In this document: piece after piece, positions 710-35,439 of the stretch | Layout of the letters: every line of letters begins with the position of its first letter | Position numbering within the stretch: the first letter of the stretch is position 1 | UHGV virus genome: UHGV-0327679 | Strand: one strand, 5' to 3' | From: a virus | Length of the DNA: 35,439 nt | Position numbers and translations under genes: made by a program | Notes under the pieces: generated by a model | Databases searched by the model: none | What the model was told of the DNA's origin: nothing | The model's input: only the letters and a program-made list of their open reading frames with translations

Positions 710-1210
710 ATGAGTAAGAGACGTCACGAGGTAGTAACTCGGGAGCGCCTTATGGAGGTTCTCGATTACAATAAAGAAACAGGAATTTTCACTTGGAAAA
801 AGAAATTAAGCGCCAGAGGTGCTGTTGGGAAAGTTGCTGGCACAATTTCTTATGGATATAACGCAATTAATATTGATGGCGTAAGATATTTTGCACATAG
901 ACTTGCCTGGCTGTATGTATATGGCGAATGGCCCAAACAAGAGATTGACCACATTGATAGAAACAGAAGAAATAACGCAATCTCAAACCTTAGGGATGTC
1001 AGCAGAGTCGTAAATGCATTAAATGTCGGACCTCGAAATAGCAATGCTGGAATCAAGGGGGTAACTTTCTGTCAAGCCAGAAATCAATGGCAAGCTCAGA
1101 TAAATGTCTCAGGTAAAAACATAACCCTTGGGAGATTCAACACCATTGATGAAGCGGCTATAGCTTATAAGGCAGCAAACATGGTTGCTGACCATCTGTT
1201 GAGTAGGTAA
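710..1210 (+). CDS. HNH homing endonuclease with C-terminal AP2-type DNA-binding domain
   Basis: HNH motif [23 protein letters not shown]2-like [47 protein letters not shown] 6 nt upstream of ATG 710; AT-rich; divergent from tailspike start. Confidence 0.75.
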
Positions 1211-1274
1211 TGTCTGTCATTTAATTTGCTCCAGATACAAGGAATCGCCGCAGCATGGCTACGGTGAATTTTGG

Positions 1275-1301
1275 GCATAAAAAAACCCAGCCGAAGCTGG
1301 G
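1275..1301 (-). terminator. Rho-independent terminator downstream of ant
   Basis: Stem CCCAGC/GCTGGG with CGAA loop (1286-1301), followed on the minus strand by a run of 7 T (plus-strand A run 1279-1285). Confidence 0.6.
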
Positions 1302-1320
1302 TCGTTGCGTTGGTTATCTG

Positions 1321-21610: not shown

Positions 21611-21795
21611 GGTCTACCCCTCTTGCCCTGTTTGACCATCAGGACGCCGTTAACTATTACGTGACGCTCACCTTTGCTGTCTCGGTTGTACTTGAGCACT
21701 GTTCCTCTTGCGCAGGAAAGCATCCTCGCCACTTCGGTCTGATTGCCTCGTGTCTGGATAAGAAGCTCTGGTATCGTTTGAATTGTGGCGTTCAT
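21607..21795 (-). CDS. ninH: NinH-like DNA-binding protein
   Basis: IPELLIQTRGNQTEVARMLSCARGTVLKYNRDSKGERHVIVNGVLMV resembles lambda NinH. Confidence 0.7.
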   Translation of the reverse strand: MNATIQTIPELLIQTRGNQTEVARMLSCARGTVLKYNRDSKGERHVIVNGVLMVKQGKRGRP

Positions 21796-22154
21796 ACGTT
21801 CTCCAGTTCGGTGATTTTTATTCCAAGCCTTCCGCCTGGTACTTTCACACCACGAATTACGCGAATGTCATCGAATTGCTCGTCGTCTTCCGCAAATCCG
21901 GCGTGGATAAGTGAGTCGAGTAAACCTTTCAGGATGTTGTCGAGGTCGCGGCGGCGGGAGTCTGGAACGTCTGCGATGACTTTGATACGGAGTCGTGATT
22001 TGGTAAAAATGTCTAACTTGAGTTGGCGGATGATTTTCTGAACGTCTTTTCGGTATTTCTGGCCTTTATCGCTTATGTAATATTGGCTTCCCCGTCTTCG
22101 CCAGTAGGTATTCAGCGACGGTGGGTATGGAAGTACAAACTGATATTCGTTCAT
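21792..22154 (-). CDS. rusA: Holliday-junction resolvase RusA
   Basis: 120 aa; motifs LPYPPSLNTYW and DSRRRDLDNILKGLLDSL. Confidence 0.85.
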   Translation of the reverse strand: MNEYQFVLPYPPSLNTYWRRRGSQYYISDKGQKYRKDVQKIIRQLKLDIFTKSRLRIKVIADVPDSRRRDLDNILKGLLDSLIHAGFAEDDEQFDDIRVIRGVKVPGGRLGIKITELENV

Positions 22155-22646: not shown

Positions 22647-22821
22647 CGTCTTCTTCCTCGTACATTGAGCTATTCGGATCGCTCATCAGTTCTGCACAGC
22701 AGTGCTCACACACGTGAACTTCCAGCACATGCAGCTTCTGACCGCAGTTAGCGCACGTTAAAGCCCGCTCGACGCTTTCTTTCTGGTATTGAATGGATTG
22801 GGATGGGCTAAGCATTAACAA
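22639..22821 (-). CDS. ninF: NinF-like zinc-finger protein
   Basis: [60 protein letters not shown] matches lambda NinF. Confidence 0.8.
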   Translation of the reverse strand: MLMLSPSQSIQYQKESVERALTCANCGQKLHVLEVHVCEHCCAELMSDPNSSMYEEEDDE

Positions 22822-23758
22822 CCTCCATACAAACTTTCACGAATGCCGTTGCTACTTCTGCATTGATTGCGTTTCCATATCCAATAATTCGCTGATCTTG
22901 ATTGCGCTTTGCCATTCTTCCCAGTGTGGACTTGCCTCGTCCCAAGCTTTTGGCAATGCCATTAACCATCGGGAATGAGCCGGGTCTAACTGGACGATAT
23001 TTTTCATCTCTACAGTAAAGCCAGTCTGCATCTCTCCAGAAGCCGTTAACCGGTAATGGGTACATAGCTTCACCGTCCCGGGAAGTTTCAAGCAGATTCT
23101 TGGGGTTCCGCTCTTGTCTTTTCCGCTGTAGCAATGCGTTGAACCTGTTGCATCGTTCGCTAAAGGAGTTTGCCATCCCGCTAGTCTCACGCATCCAGAT
23201 AGGTTCTGAATTCCCCTGCGCGTCTCTGGCTGAAAGTTGATATTTGTCGTTGGAGTAGGCCACCCAATACAATCGCTGCCTAATGTGCGGAGAACCGAAG
23301 CCCGCAGCGCAAATATCGGTACCTGCAGAGGTGTAGTTCGCACCTTCCAAGTCAGTTTGTACAAGGTCGAGCCAAGCGAGGCCGTCTGCGCTTGCAACCT
23401 GTTCGCCAATAACGATGCCAGGATTGCATTTTTCAATAAGCCAGAAGAATGCCGGCCATAAGTGCCGCTCGTCATCAACCCCTTTTCCTTTGCCTGCCGA
23501 GCTGAAAGGTTGGCATGGGCAACTTCCTGTCCAGATACTCTTGTTGTCTGGCCATCCTGCTTTTCTAAGTGCATAGCTCCAAACTCCGATTCCTGCAAAA
23601 AAGTGGTGCTGGGTAAATCCTCGCAAATCACCTGGTGTGACATCTTCAATACTCCTTTCATCTACATAACCGGGGGCAATTTCTCCAGCGTCAATTAAGT
23701 TACGCAGCCATTGCGCTGCATACGGATCTATTTCGTTGTAATACGCAGTCATCGTCAT
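22808..23758 (-). CDS. Orphan DNA (cytosine-5) methyltransferase
   Basis: Ordered C5-MTase motifs: [37 protein letters not shown]; no adjacent restriction endonuclease; start taken at the ATG overlapping the ninD stop. Confidence 0.75.
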
Positions 23759-23931
23759 TTCCTCGCACGATGTCTTAGCCACCGGATATCCCACAGGTGA
23801 GCCGTGTAGTTGAAGGTTTTTACGTCAGATTCTTTTGGGATTGGCTTGCGTTTATTTCTGGAGCGTTTCGTTGGAAGGTATTTGCAGTTTTCGCAGATGA
23901 TGTCGGTGAAACTTCGTCGCTGTCGTCTCAT
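23755..23931 (-). CDS. ninD: NinD-like small zinc-binding protein (58 aa; absent from the ORF track as it is under 60 aa)
   Basis: Translated by hand: [62 protein letters not shown] overlaps with ninB stop and with the MTase start. Confidence 0.6.
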
Positions 23932-24338
23932 TCGTACCTCCTGTCGGTAAATCTGACACCCTGACCAATAGCCCAGGCTGTTGTGTACTCAATCAGACTT
24001 GCCATACGCTTCACACTCATCTGCGCGCTGCTTTCGCGGATGTTGACGTATTCGCCTTCAAGCCCGGGCAAAACATCAGCTTCCTGCTTTGTTGCCACTG
24101 CATGACCGCTGATCAACAAAACCTTCCATTGTTCTGGTTTTAACCATTTATCGCGCCACTGAACTTGCCTGGCGATATCTGCGACCATCGCGTGAAATTT
24201 TGCGTTCTGGTCAAGATTTCGCTTGTAGTCAGTAATGCGGATGGTGACTGGCTTGTCTTTATCGAGTGGTGTTGCGAGGATGGCGTTGATTGCGGCTTGC
24301 TGTTGTTGCTTACTCCTGAGGAAAATTGTCTGTTTCAT
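23928..24338 (-). CDS. ninB: NinB (Orf-family recombination mediator)
   Basis: 136 aa with [22 protein letters not shown], resembling lambda NinB. Confidence 0.8.
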
Positions 24339-33227: not shown

Positions 33228-33661
33228 AACAAATGTCACTAATTGAGATGGATGGTTTTCTGAAAGGTAAATGCATCCCACGAGATTTAAAGGTTAACGA
33301 AACAAACGCTGAATATCTGGTGCGTAAATTTGCTGAAGCGGAGGCCAAGTGCGCGGCGCTGGCTGCTGAAGTTGAGGCTGTGAAATCAGCACATCAAGAT
33401 GCTGTAAACACCATCATGTATACCGCCAATCGAACGGGTGTTTTATACACAGAGAAGGCAATTCAAATGTCCTGCAAAACCCCGGCCACCGATGCTTTCC
33501 TGACTGAAGTCCGGGCTAAGGCGTTTGATGACCTTTGCGCGGCGTTCGTTAAGCACGCGTCGGTGTCCGGGCTGGACGATGGCGACTGCGTTACGGTGAA
33601 AGAGGCGACTGACGCCCTGCTGCATTGTGCGGAACAGCTTCACAAGGGAGTGCATTCATGA
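33224..33661 (+). CDS. Hypothetical protein (about 145 aa)
   Basis: Start probably the ATG at 33224; stop overlaps the lar start (ATGA). Confidence 0.45.
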
Positions 33662-33891
33662 GCAACCTACTACCATGTCCATTCTGTGGCGGTGCAGCGC
33701 ACGTTGCCAGCGAAGCAGATCACCCTGAATATGGCTCTGGCGGTCGATTCTATTTCGTTCGATGCGGTACGTGTCGCGCTCAATCTGGTAGCAAATATGC
33801 AGCGCCTGGAAATGACTGCGCGATTTTTTATTCAGAGGTTAGAGCAGAGTGGAATCAGCGAGCAAAGGAGGCAACCAGTGAGCAAGATTGA
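33658..33891 (+). CDS. lar: Lar-family restriction-alleviation protein
   Basis: [43 protein letters not shown], the Cys-rich Lar zinc-finger pattern. Confidence 0.7.
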   Translation: MSNLLPCPFCGGAAHVASEADHPEYGSGGRFYFVRCGTCRAQSGSKYAAPGNDCAIFYSEVRAEWNQRAKEATSEQD

Positions 33892-34285
33892 CTATCAGGC
33901 ACTGCGTGAAGCGGCAGAGAAAGCCGGTGAAGATAAGTGGCAGGCTAAAAAAATAAATGGTGATTTTTTCGTTATTCGTCACGGTAGTTATACAAGACAG
34001 CATGGCTACACATCGTATCAACCCATTGCGGAGATTGATTGTAAGCCAGTCCGGGATTTTGTTGCCAAGGCTAATCCGGCTACCGTGCTGGAATTACTGG
34101 ATGAACTGGAAGCAGCAAAAAAGCGCATTGCAGAACTGGAAGCGCGGGAAATATCGCTCCCGGAACGTAGCAGCATGCTTCATCGAACAGATTTTCACGA
34201 TGATTACCAAACGGTAATGGCATACAAAGTTTCTGAAGTCATCGATGCAATCCGCGCTACTGGCATTCGCATCAAAGGAGAGTGA
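33878..34285 (+). CDS. Ea22-like family protein, GTG start
   Basis: AAGGAGG 7 nt upstream of GTG 33878; VSKIDYQALREAAEKAGEDKWQA; predicted coiled-coil LELLDELEAAKKRIAELEA. Confidence 0.5.
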   Translation: MSKIDYQALREAAEKAGEDKWQAKKINGDFFVIRHGSYTRQHGYTSYQPIAEIDCKPVRDFVAKANPATVLELLDELEAAKKRIAELEAREISLPERSSMLHRTDFHDDYQTVMAYKVSEVIDAIRATGIRIKGE

Positions 34286-34286
34286 T

Positions 34287-34802
34287 ATGGCGTTAACACA
34301 CAGCGAACTCTGTCAGATTGCGTACAAGTTCCTTAAGCGCAACGGGTTCAAGGTTTATTTTCATGACCGCTTTATAGCTGTAACCAGTACCGGAGAACAG
34401 CCAGATGCTATGGGATTCAGAAATTCAGCATCATGCCTGATAGAGGCGAAGTGTTCTCGTGCTGACTTGTTGGCAGATAGAAAAAAGCGTTTCCGTAAAA
34501 ATCCGTCTTTTGGAATGGGCGACTGGCGATTCTTTATTAGTGAGCCGGGAATTATTTCAATTGAGGATTTACCTCCCGGCTGGGGATTACTTCACGTTGT
34601 TAACGGAAGAGTACGGAAAGTACATGGGTGGCCCAAGGGTAATTGCTGTTGGGGTAATCCTGACGATAAGCCATTTACTGGAAATAAGCAGGTTGAATGC
34701 GATTACATGTTATCTGCATTAAGGCGCATGGAGTTGAGAGGGCACCTTAATGAAATATATGACGGTGTAATTGTTAATAAGAAAGAAGGAAACGCGGCAT
34801 GA
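34287..34802 (+). CDS. Hypothetical protein with a possible PD-(D/E)xK nuclease motif
   Basis: QPDAMGF followed 13 aa later by CLIEAKCS (PD...ExK spacing); GGAGAG Shine-Dalgarno. Confidence 0.4.
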   Translation: MALTHSELCQIAYKFLKRNGFKVYFHDRFIAVTSTGEQPDAMGFRNSASCLIEAKCSRADLLADRKKRFRKNPSFGMGDWRFFISEPGIISIEDLPPGWGLLHVVNGRVRKVHGWPKGNCCWGNPDDKPFTGNKQVECDYMLSALRRMELRGHLNEIYDGVIVNKKEGNAA

Positions 34803-35439
34803 TCACGATTACCAAAGAGTTCACCAAAGAGCAGTTGATTGAGCAGGCTAAGAAGAATATTGAGGTTCTTCGCGTTGCGGTGGAAAGAGTCCCAGGCGCT
34901 TATGATGCGGCGGTTATTCACCTCAAGCTGGCTGAAATTACGCTGGCATCGCTGGAAGCAGAGCCAGTGGCAAAGATTATAGCTCACTACCCATTAGGAA
35001 TTGACGTAGGCAAACAAAAGTTCGTACAGGCCATTGGAGAGCTTCCTGATTTTGGCGGATATCTATTCGCTGTGCCGCCAGCGCCGATAGCGTTGGAGGC
35101 TATTGAAAATGCAATTGAATACATTCGCAGTATCGCTTTTCACATAGATGAAGACGATTACCACGGCAAACATATTGCGTATTTCATGCGACAAGCATTG
35201 GCCTGGCTGGAAGGGCGTTCATGCAGCGACGACAGACTGGGTAAAGCCGAGAATCAACCAGTACGCGGCAATGAGTGGACTGGCAATCCTGATATTGATA
35301 ACGCCATCATCATGCTCGACCGCATAGATACGCTGGAAAATTGTGATGATGACCGTATTGAGGGTGTTAAGGCTGTTTTGCGCAGACTGGCTGTCAACTA
35401 TCCGGTAACTCCGGATGGTTGGATAAGCTGTAGTGAGCG
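34799..35439 (+). CDS. Hypothetical protein, partial (open to window end, over 213 aa)
   Basis: ATGA overlap with the upstream stop; no stop codon before 35439. Confidence 0.45.
   Translation, partial: MITITKEFTKEQLIEQAKKNIEVLRVAVERVPGAYDAAVIHLKLAEITLASLEAEPVAKIIAHYPLGIDVGKQKFVQAIGELPDFGGYLFAVPPAPIALEAIENAIEYIRSIAFHIDEDDYHGKHIAYFMRQALAWLEGRSCSDDRLGKAENQPVRGNEWTGNPDIDNAIIMLDRIDTLENCDDDRIEGVKAVLRRLAVNYPVTPDGWISCSE

What the first reader, a model, noticed from the sequence alone, without database searches (positions are those of the whole stretch)
34287..35439. Possible PD-(D/E)xK nuclease and a large unknown partner at the window edge
A 171-aa protein has a PD...ExK-spaced motif (QPDAMGF, then LIEAKCS) and is translationally coupled to a downstream ORF of over 213 aa that runs off the window. 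The pair lies next to Lar and the Ea22-like gene in the accessory early-left region.
Basis: inference. Interest (0 to 1): 0.4.

Follow-up and report, generated by a model that had tools for sequence, protein, structure and literature searches.

The report
Phage MmcB-like nuclease, DUF551 neighbour
A 171-residue early gene of a P22-like E. coli prophage encodes a divergent, uncharacterised relative of the MmcB/archaeal-Hjc DNA-cutting enzymes. The gene after it is an interchangeable DUF551 protein rather than a dedicated partner, so this is a solid but fairly ordinary annotation gain.

Summary
ORF-A (34287-34802, 171 aa) carries QPDAMGF and LIEAKCS. Its stop overlaps the start of ORF-B (ATGA, 34799-34802), and Lar and an Ead/Ea22-like gene lie just upstream.

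The family is large: 3216 representatives, 642 phage records and 928 of 5426 complete E. coli genomes. It occurs in temperate and virulent phages, always among replication or recombination genes.

The "large unknown partner" reading is not supported. ORF-B is a 275-aa DUF551 protein. In 119 loci with a called downstream gene that gene takes 109 different forms, 47 of them DUF551, and the conserved DNA block ends at ORF-A's borders.

Most likely ORF-A is a stand-alone metal-dependent DNA endonuclease acting on branched or damaged DNA early in lytic growth. Its substrate is unknown. It is a new member of a known kind, of modest interest.

The parts
34275..34280 (+). Shine-Dalgarno (AAGGAG) of ORF-A, 6 bases before the ATG. 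The stop of the upstream Ead/Ea22-like gene (TGA 34283-34285) lies between them.
   Evidence: Read directly from the sequence.
34287..34802 (+). ORF-A: 171-aa MmcB/Hjc-like PD-(D/E)XK nuclease. Residues about 1-112 form the nuclease core; residues 113-171 are a subfamily-specific extension containing a conserved helix (NKQxE...SALRR).
34398..34457 (+). Catalytic segment: QPD(40)AMGF on strand beta2 and LIE(53)AK(55)CS on strand beta3. The codons are D40 = 34404-34406, E53 = 34443-34445, K55 = 34449-34451.
   Evidence: D40 is present in 61/61 relatives; E37, E53 and K55 in 60/61 each. These residues align with D39 and E53-C-K55 of the MmcB family and with the PD and E-M-K of Hjc.
34458..34529 (+). 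Conserved post-catalytic segment R58-x-D60-(F/L)-x-x-D64-x-x-K67-x-F-R70...G76-M-G78-D-W-R81. Together with S57 it forms the S-R-x-D-F-x-x-D signature shared with MmcB, followed by a basic insertion that MmcB lacks.
   Evidence: D60, G78 and R81 are invariant; R58, D64, K67 and R70 are at least 90% conserved. The 7-residue gap in MmcB is seen.
34799..35439 (+). ORF-B, first 213 of 275 codons. In the source genome it would end at window-equivalent 35626. It is a modular DUF551 ('EaA'-like) protein: leader 1-42, LASLEAEPVA joint 47-58, variable linker 59-92, helical central module 93-205, and DUF551 at 207-272, which lies almost wholly outside the window.
   Evidence: ATGA overlap. Full length from the identical genome. 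Pfam DUF551 E 2e-21. 2907 homologues, all named DUF551 proteins. Module structure. The structural model is poor, pLDDT 50.
33878..34285 (+). Upstream neighbour: Ead/Ea22-like coiled-coil protein (GTG start, 135 aa). This is context, not part of a unit with ORF-A.
   Evidence: Pfam Ead_Ea22 E 3e-18 and PGAP annotation. 39 of 89 distinct upstream proteins across loci are Ead/Ea22-like.
33658..33891 (+). Lar-family restriction-alleviation gene (context).
   Evidence: Pfam Lar_restr_allev E 2e-9 and PGAP annotation.

Best explanation
ORF-A is a stand-alone, metal-dependent DNA endonuclease of the PD-(D/E)XK superfamily. It belongs to a large phage-borne branch of the MmcB-like / archaeal-Hjc-like group.

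Shown: the core fold is present. D40, E53 and K55, with helper acidic residues E37 and D/E27, sit where the canonical catalytic residues sit, namely the start of beta2 and the end of beta3. The protein is homologous to the MmcB family and shares its E-C-K-x-S-R-x-D-F-x-x-D signature.

Inferred: it is transcribed with the early-left (pL, N-antiterminated) operon after induction or infection. It probably cuts branched, stalled or damaged DNA (junctions, forks or crosslink-type lesions) that arise while the phage replicates and recombines, working alongside the phage's Rad52-like annealing protein, SSB, exonuclease, NinB and RusA. The basic insertion (K66-K67-x-F-R70) and the conserved C-terminal helix (E137, R146, R147) probably contribute DNA binding or dimerisation.

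ORF-B is not needed for this. It is one interchangeable member of the mosaic DUF551 family that happens to occupy the next slot.
For: Fold: model pLDDT 71.8, pTM 0.68, order H5-18, E22-25, E41-45, E48-54, H58-65, E80-85.

Sequence: a profile of 61 relatives hits 3dnx at E 1.2e-4 and Hjc at 0.075. hhalign against 24 MmcB-family proteins gives probability 98.1%, E 1.1e-13 over 109 columns, with D40/E53/K55 aligned to D39/E53/K55. 25 of 61 relatives give weak Hjc hits and 10 of 61 give weak MmcB-like hits in Pfam. One family member passes Pfam's MmcB-like cut-off.

Conservation: D40 61/61; E37, E53 and K55 60/61.

Literature: DUF1052/PF06319/3dnx is classed as a PD-(D/E)XK family related to archaeal junction resolvases (PMC1189080, PMC3424549). 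A review describes Caulobacter MmcB as an SOS-induced PD-(D/E)XK endonuclease that protects against mitomycin C and cisplatin (PMC9578287).

Context is always DNA metabolism:
- Here it follows the Rad52-like, SSB, exonuclease and Abc2 genes.
- In Providencia it lies between Dam/Lar and RusA.
- In Salmonella it is fused to an Ead N-terminus directly after DnaB.
- In Vibrio phage X29 it lies among exonucleases, DUF1064, RusA-like, Dam and SSB genes.
- In Ackermannviridae it lies just upstream of the primase genes.

Independence from ORF-B.
Against: No biochemical or genetic data exist for any member, and every annotated record calls it hypothetical. ORF-A itself reaches no Pfam, NCBIfam or PDB-sequence threshold on its own, so the assignment rests on profiles and a mid-confidence model. 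The C-terminal third is poorly modelled (pLDDT about 40-50). Foldseek against the PDB gave no hit at E <= 0.001.

The substrate is a guess from relatives and neighbours. PD-(D/E)XK domains also serve in restriction, defence effectors, RNA cleavage and non-catalytic DNA binding. The phage already has RusA, so a plain junction-resolvase role would be redundant.
Confidence: 0.55

Rival explanations
1. ORF-A and ORF-B form a dedicated two-gene system, such as nuclease plus regulator or targeting subunit, toxin-antitoxin, or a defence or exclusion module. This is what the first reader suspected.
For: The ATGA overlap is conserved in nearly all coli-type loci. 47 of 109 distinct downstream proteins carry DUF551. 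Vibrio phage X29 has a small DUF551 gene directly upstream of its ORF-A homologue. Rare fused forms exist (P0020, P0034, P0221).
Against: 109 distinct downstream proteins occur in 119 loci with a called downstream gene, including RusA, DNA methylases, dATP/dGTP pyrophosphohydrolase and many with no family. Among 79 loci with 97-100% identical ORF-A, only 2-9 share the body of this ORF-B, and the conserved DNA ends about 20 bases into it. Overlapping starts and stops are general in this operon. PADLOC gives no hit. DUF551 genes are simply abundant in these regions.
Confidence: 0.05
2. ORF-A is a host-takeover or anti-defence nuclease. It would degrade host or competitor DNA, or a host immune component, in line with its neighbours Lar (anti-restriction) and Abc2 (anti-RecBCD).
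For: It lies in the accessory early-left region next to Lar and Abc2. Lar-like genes sit directly upstream of relatives in Providencia prophages. It is expressed early.
Against: The closest relatives are repair or junction enzymes, not known anti-defence proteins. In other phages it sits beside DnaB, primase or RusA rather than anti-defence genes. Only 1 of 89 distinct upstream proteins is Lar.
Confidence: 0.12
3. ORF-A is a true Holliday-junction resolvase of the archaeal Hjc type: a homodimer making paired nicks across four-way junctions.
For: The D-(12)-E-x-K spacing matches Hjc. The profile aligns with PD and E-M-K-S-R-x-D of Hjc. 25 of 61 relatives give weak Pfam Hjc hits. The MmcB family is classed next to archaeal resolvases (PMC1189080).
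Confidence: 0.18
4. ORF-A is a selfish, homing-type endonuclease whose cutting drives the mosaic exchange seen on both of its flanks.
For: ORF-A is 97-100% identical across 79 viral loci whose flanks are almost all different, with sharp breakpoints at its borders. PD-(D/E)XK homing enzymes are known (own knowledge).
Against: Sharp module borders at gene ends are the general pattern of lambdoid mosaicism. The loci were selected for containing ORF-A, which inflates the contrast. The family is a stable gene next to primase in Ackermannviridae. No target-site or empty-site evidence was sought.
Confidence: 0.04
5. ORF-A is a catalytically inert DNA-binding or regulatory protein that has kept the fold only.
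For: Other genes of the exo-xis region act as developmental regulators (PMC7093339, PMC10834534).
Against: All canonical catalytic residues are kept in 60-61 of 61 relatives down to 33% identity. That is not expected for an inert scaffold.
Confidence: 0.04

Closest known systems
MmcB family (Pfam PF06319, formerly DUF1052; COG5321; structure 3dnx, SPO1766 of Ruegeria pomeroyi; Caulobacter MmcB)
   Different: ORF-A does not reach the Pfam or NCBIfam thresholds. It has a T-H-x-E-L N-terminus, a G-E-x-P-D rather than G-L-R-V-D strand, a 7-residue basic insertion (KKxFRxxPxxGMG) and a different C-terminal third. It is phage-borne in gamma-proteobacteria, whereas classic MmcB is a chromosomal gene found mostly in alpha-proteobacteria and is SOS-induced in Caulobacter (PMC3424549, PMC9578287). 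No link to crosslink repair has been tested.
Archaeal Holliday-junction resolvase Hjc (PF01870; 1hh1, 2eo0, 4tkd)
   Same: Minimal PD-(D/E)XK core of similar size, with the same spacing between D and E-x-K and the same K-S-R-x-D continuation. Many relatives give weak Pfam hits.
RusA and Rap (NinG), the known lambdoid junction or branch nucleases
   Same: Phage-encoded early nucleases that process recombination and replication intermediates. RusA is encoded in this prophage and sits next to ORF-A relatives elsewhere.
   Different: The folds are unrelated, so this is a functional analogy only.
DUF551 proteins (PF04448; P22 'EaA'-type proteins, E. coli YfdS, Ea22 variant 2 of Stx phages). This is the closest known family for ORF-B.
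   Same: ORF-B has a full DUF551 domain at residues 207-272 (E 2e-21). It also has the modular, mosaic build described for Ea22-type proteins (PMC10834534).
   Different: The N-terminal 206 residues match no Pfam family. The function of DUF551 itself is unknown.

Membership tests
PD-(D/E)XK nuclease superfamily | Restriction-endonuclease-like alpha-beta-beta-beta-alpha-beta core | tested here: met
PD-(D/E)XK nuclease superfamily | Catalytic D ... (D/E)-x-K on strands beta2 and beta3, conserved in the family | tested here: met
   D40 is 61/61; E53 and K55 are 60/61. Their position relative to the predicted strands is canonical.
PD-(D/E)XK nuclease superfamily | Metal-dependent phosphodiester cleavage | not testable with these tools
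   Needs enzyme assays with wild type and D40A, E53A and K55A mutants.
MmcB-like (Pfam PF06319 / NCBIfam 'MmcB family DNA repair protein') | Score above the curated model cut-off | tested here: not met
   ORF-A has no Pfam or NCBIfam hit even at E <= 1. 10 of 61 relatives give weak hits, best E 2.9e-4. One distant member of the ORF-A profile family, P0262, does pass (23.1 against 22 bits).
MmcB-like (Pfam PF06319 / NCBIfam 'MmcB family DNA repair protein') | Homology at profile level, with a shared catalytic and post-catalytic signature | tested here: met
MmcB-like (Pfam PF06319 / NCBIfam 'MmcB family DNA repair protein') | Protection against mitomycin C or cisplatin damage; SOS control | not testable with these tools
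   Known only for Caulobacter MmcB (PMC9578287). Here the gene lies in the phage early-left operon.
Archaeal Hjc resolvase (PF01870) | Score above the curated cut-off; dimeric cleavage of four-way junctions | tested here: not met
   ORF-A has no Pfam hit. 25 of 61 relatives give sub-threshold hits. The profile against Hjc chains gives E 0.075-0.13. Activity was not tested.
DUF551 (PF04448), for ORF-B | Score above the curated cut-off | tested here: met
   The full-length protein from the identical genome scores 77 bits against a cut-off of 22, at residues 207-272. The part inside the window holds only the first 7 residues of the domain and gives no hit.
Known anti-phage defence systems (PADLOC-DB) | Match to any defence-system protein model | tested here: not met
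   No hit for ORF-A or ORF-B at E <= 1.
Conserved two-gene module (nuclease plus fixed partner) | The same partner family stays adjacent across diverged relatives | tested here: not met
   There are 109 distinct downstream proteins in 119 loci with a called downstream gene. Only 47 of the 109 carry DUF551; others are RusA, methylases, a pyrophosphohydrolase or unknowns. DNA conservation ends at ORF-A's borders.

The most novel reading that the evidence does not exclude
The phage ORF-A family may be a distinct, so far unrecognised class of bacterial-virus structure-specific nuclease descended from the Hjc/MmcB stock. In this reading the Ead/Ea22 coiled-coil and DUF551 modules that flank it recruit or target it.

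Natural fusions hint at this: Ead N-terminus plus nuclease directly after DnaB in Salmonella, nuclease plus DUF551, and TniB-like ATPase plus nuclease. The enzyme could, for example, unhook or cut lesions and stalled forks in phage DNA after SOS-type induction.

If true, this would give a first biochemical function to the enigmatic Ead/Ea22-DUF551 region of lambdoid phages.
Probability: 0.1. Interest if true: 0.55.

Novelty: new member of a known kind. Interest (0 to 1): 0.3.

Why it matters
The gene is common. It occurs in about one in six complete E. coli genomes, in Shiga-toxin phages, in P1/P7-type phage-plasmids, and in Vibrio and Ackermannviridae phages. Yet it is called hypothetical almost everywhere (a few phage records call it a DNA repair protein). 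No Pfam or NCBIfam model covers ORF-A itself or most of its family. In its own RefSeq genome it is even labelled a frameshifted pseudogene.

Assigning it to the MmcB/Hjc-like nucleases gives a testable function to a recurrent early phage gene. It adds a candidate enzyme to phage recombination and repair next to RusA, Rap and NinB. It also suggests that damage-induced prophages may carry their own lesion-processing nuclease. Showing that the neighbouring DUF551 gene is an interchangeable mosaic slot prevents a false two-gene system from entering catalogues.

Tried and rejected
- Direct searches with ORF-A alone found nothing useful. Pfam, NCBIfam and PADLOC gave no hits, and PDB sequences gave only chance matches to a lectin and Toc34.
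- Foldseek against the PDB gave only weak matches, with no E <= 0.001, although they were the right kind of protein. The AFDB50 library was unavailable.
- The 61-sequence alignment was too diverse for the search for related loci, so the closer 28-sequence alignment was used instead. The viral-contig scan then returned only near-identical coli copies. That was good for mapping mosaic borders but poor for diversity, so the genome scan supplied the diverged contexts.
- Literature searches for the exo-xis region, DUF551 and MmcB in phages found no study of this gene.
- No promoter-like or terminator-like site lies around the two genes, so the idea of a separate transcription unit was dropped.
- Base composition is unremarkable: ORF-A is 44% G+C against 48% for the window.
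- The defence or toxin-antitoxin reading and the fixed-partner reading were considered and rejected on the neighbour statistics.

Full report
**1. What is in the sequence**

The window is 100% identical to a P22-like prophage of E. coli FDAARGOS_1256 (NZ_CP069451.1). The prophage carries a tailspike, P22-type capsid, portal and terminase, a lysis cassette, and Q. Its nin region includes RusA, NinB and a cytosine methylase. It also has DnaB-type replication genes, the cII/cro/cI region and N. The early-left operon then runs Rad52-like annealing protein, SSB, 3'-5' exonuclease, Abc2 anti-RecBCD, DUF2737, a 145-aa unknown, Lar, and an Ead/Ea22-like gene.

ORF-A occupies 34287-34802 (171 aa) behind an AAGGAG ribosome-binding site at 34275-34280. 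QPDAMGF is residues 38-44 and LIEAKCS is residues 51-57. ORF-B starts at 34799, so its ATG overlaps ORF-A's TGA as ATGA, and it is open to the end of the window.

In the identical genome ORF-B ends 187 bases further on, at 275 aa. No promoter-like or terminator-like site lies near either gene. The first terminator-like hairpins come about 550 bases after ORF-B. Start/stop overlaps of 1-14 bases are the rule along the whole operon.

**2. Is the motif more than chance?**

On its own, no. PD..[DE]xK occurs in 7% of shuffles of ORF-A and in 4 of the 50 ORFs of at least 100 aa in this window. The evidence comes from relatives.

ORF-A has 323 close homologues, all Enterobacterales and all unnamed. 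A profile of 28 of them finds 3216 cluster representatives at E <= 0.001 and 2405 at E <= 1e-10. In an alignment of 61 members reaching down to 33% identity:
- D40 is invariant.
- E37, E53 and K55 are each kept in 60 of 61.
- Position 27 is acidic in 60 of 61.
- H5 is kept in 59 of 61.
- D60, G78, R81 and E137 are invariant.

**3. Fold and family**

AlphaFold2 with the 28-sequence alignment gives mean pLDDT 71.8 and pTM 0.68. The order is helix 5-18, strands 22-25, 41-45 and 48-54, helix 58-65, strand 80-85. This is the alpha-beta-beta-beta-alpha-beta core of restriction-endonuclease-like nucleases, with D40 at the start of the second strand and E53-x-K55 at the end of the third. The last third (about residue 130 onward) is poorly modelled.

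By sequence, the 61-member profile hits 3dnx at E 1.2e-4 and Hjc chains at 0.075-0.13. The 3dnx fragment retrieves thousands of proteins carrying PF06319 and named MmcB family DNA repair protein. A profile-profile comparison of the two alignments gives probability 98.1% and E 1.1e-13 over 109 columns. D40 aligns with D39, E53-A-K55 with E53-C-K55, and the following S-R-x-D-F-x-x-D signature is shared.

ORF-A itself matches no Pfam, NCBIfam or PADLOC model, even at E <= 1. Among its relatives, 25 of 61 give weak Hjc hits and 10 of 61 give weak MmcB-like hits. One distant member passes Pfam's MmcB-like cut-off.

The literature places DUF1052/PF06319/3dnx in the PD-(D/E)XK superfamily next to archaeal junction resolvases (PMC1189080, PMC3424549). 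A review describes Caulobacter MmcB as an SOS-induced endonuclease of this superfamily that protects against mitomycin C and cisplatin (PMC9578287).

The precise statement is this: ORF-A is homologous to the MmcB family and works with the same catalytic apparatus, but it is a divergent phage branch that the curated models do not capture. Relative to MmcB it has a different N-terminus, a 7-residue basic insertion after the catalytic strand, and its own C-terminal extension.

**4. Where the family lives**

tblastn finds ORF-A in 642 phage records: lambdoid and Stx phages, P1/P7-type phages (P7 Upf89.0), Klebsiella, Vibrio and Tenacibaculum phages, and the virulent Ackermannviridae. Its DNA is in 928 of 5426 complete E. 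coli genomes, at 1049 chromosomal and 248 plasmid places, and every record listed calls it hypothetical.

The neighbours are always DNA-metabolism genes:
- Here it follows the recombination genes.
- In Providencia it lies between Dam/Lar and RusA.
- In Salmonella it is fused to a short Ead N-terminus directly after DnaB.
- In Vibrio phage X29 it lies among two exonucleases, DUF551, DUF1064, RusA-like, ASCH, Dam and SSB genes.
- In Kuttervirus and Taipeivirus it lies just upstream of the primase genes.

Three facts argue against a lysogen-protecting defence gene and for a role in lytic DNA transactions. Relatives occur in virulent phages. The gene sits in a repressor-controlled operon. And it has no PADLOC match.

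**5. The 'partner'**

Full-length ORF-B has a DUF551 domain at residues 207-272 (E 2e-21). It has 2907 homologues, essentially all named DUF551 domain-containing protein. One P1-like record names the equivalent gene EaA protein.

I located the genes flanking ORF-A in 121 loci: 79 viral contigs with 97-100% identical ORF-A (plus one copy of this prophage), about 30 diverged genomes and several phages. A downstream gene could be called in 119 of them. In the coli-type loci it nearly always starts with the same ATGA overlap and a MITITKE-type leader, but there are 109 distinct downstream proteins of 44 to 868 residues. Of those 109, 47 carry DUF551, two are RusA, two are DNA methylases, two are dATP/dGTP pyrophosphohydrolases, and most of the rest match nothing.

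Mapping DNA identity onto this locus shows all 79 viral loci covering 34300-34800. Coverage falls to 2-20 of 79 within a few tens of bases on either side, and only 2-9 share the body of this ORF-B.

Upstream the picture is similar: 39 of 89 distinct proteins are Ead/Ea22-like and the rest are varied.

ORF-B itself is built of swappable modules: a leader, a LASLEAEPVA joint, a variable linker, a nearly invariant helical module (93-205) and a variable DUF551. Its predicted structure is too uncertain to use (pLDDT 50).

ORF-A is thus a self-contained mosaic module. ORF-B is whichever DUF551-type cassette happens to sit in the next slot. The pair is positional, not functional.

**6. Most likely mechanism**

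Shown: the fold, the conserved catalytic residues, the homology to MmcB, the early-operon position and the independence from ORF-B.

Inferred: ORF-A is a metal-dependent DNA endonuclease with D40, E53 and K55 at the active site. It acts on branched, stalled or damaged DNA during early replication and recombination.

Because the same phage encodes RusA, and relatives sit beside RusA elsewhere, a second plain junction resolvase seems less likely than a complementary activity such as fork, flap or lesion processing. An attractive but untested idea follows from MmcB. Prophages induced by DNA damage would profit from their own lesion-processing nuclease.

Rivals are listed with their tests: a dedicated two-gene system, an anti-defence or host-takeover nuclease, a true Hjc-type resolvase, a homing-type selfish nuclease, and an inert scaffold.

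**7. Novelty and verdict**

This is a new member of a known kind: a large, unmodelled, phage-borne branch of the MmcB/Hjc-like PD-(D/E)XK nucleases. It is useful for annotation and is a reasonable target for biochemistry, but a specialist would not find it surprising. The partner claim should be dropped.

Interest is 0.3. The most novel reading still open is that the nuclease works with the flanking Ead/Ea22 and DUF551 modules, as rare natural fusions hint. I put that at about 10% probability.

Noticed in passing
window 34287-34465 (L001 9288-9466): RefSeq annotates ORF-A in its own genome as a 'frameshifted' hypothetical pseudogene covering only the first 179 bases. The 516-base ORF is in fact intact and 98% identical to a 171-aa cluster with 1363 member sequences. 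The identical ORF in NZ_CP019243.1 is called an intact hypothetical protein, and a P1-like record leaves it unannotated.
   Followed up: partly
window 34799-35439 and the downstream genes of L010-L108: The DUF551/'EaA'-type gene after ORF-A is hyper-mosaic, with 109 distinct proteins in 119 loci. They share a short leader (MITITKE...) and a joint (LASLEAEPVA), after which middle modules and DUF551 variants are swapped. The joint looks like a preferred recombination point inside a coding sequence.
   Followed up: partly
L127 and L128 4001-4738 (Salmonella prophages); proteins P0087, P0101: A natural fusion joins a short Ead/Ea22-type N-terminus to the ORF-A nuclease domain, with an ELELELE tail. 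It is encoded directly after the DnaB-type replicative helicase.
   Followed up: partly
L129 6001-7287 (metagenome contig); protein P0133: A 428-aa protein joins a TniB-like AAA+ ATPase domain (Pfam E 3e-6) to an ORF-A-type nuclease domain. It lies next to a large TPR protein and a faint methylase hit. Only a single example was seen.
   Followed up: no
proteins P0216 and P0221: Other fusions of the nuclease domain exist: one with a dATP/dGTP pyrophosphohydrolase domain (PF04447) and one with a weak DUF551 match. PF04447 genes also follow ORF-A relatives in 2 of 109 contexts.
   Followed up: no
window 21792-22154 (-) and 23928-24338 (-): The same prophage encodes a RusA junction resolvase and NinB in its nin region. 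It also has a DNA cytosine methyltransferase at about 22808-23752 (-). The RusA gene bears on whether ORF-A could be a redundant resolvase.
   Followed up: partly
window about 845-1303 (+): A free-standing gene annotated as an HNH-endonuclease-motif protein sits between the tailspike gene and the antirepressor/Arc region of the prophage.
   Followed up: no
L008 3980-4597 (Salmonella phage rabagast) and L125 2980-3591 (Klebsiella phage FKP14): Ackermannviridae carry a 203-205-aa relative of ORF-A. Only its first ~110 residues (the nuclease core) align with ORF-A. It lies immediately upstream of the primase genes, in one case separated from them by a homing endonuclease. It looks like a conserved replication-module gene of that family.
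   Followed up: partly
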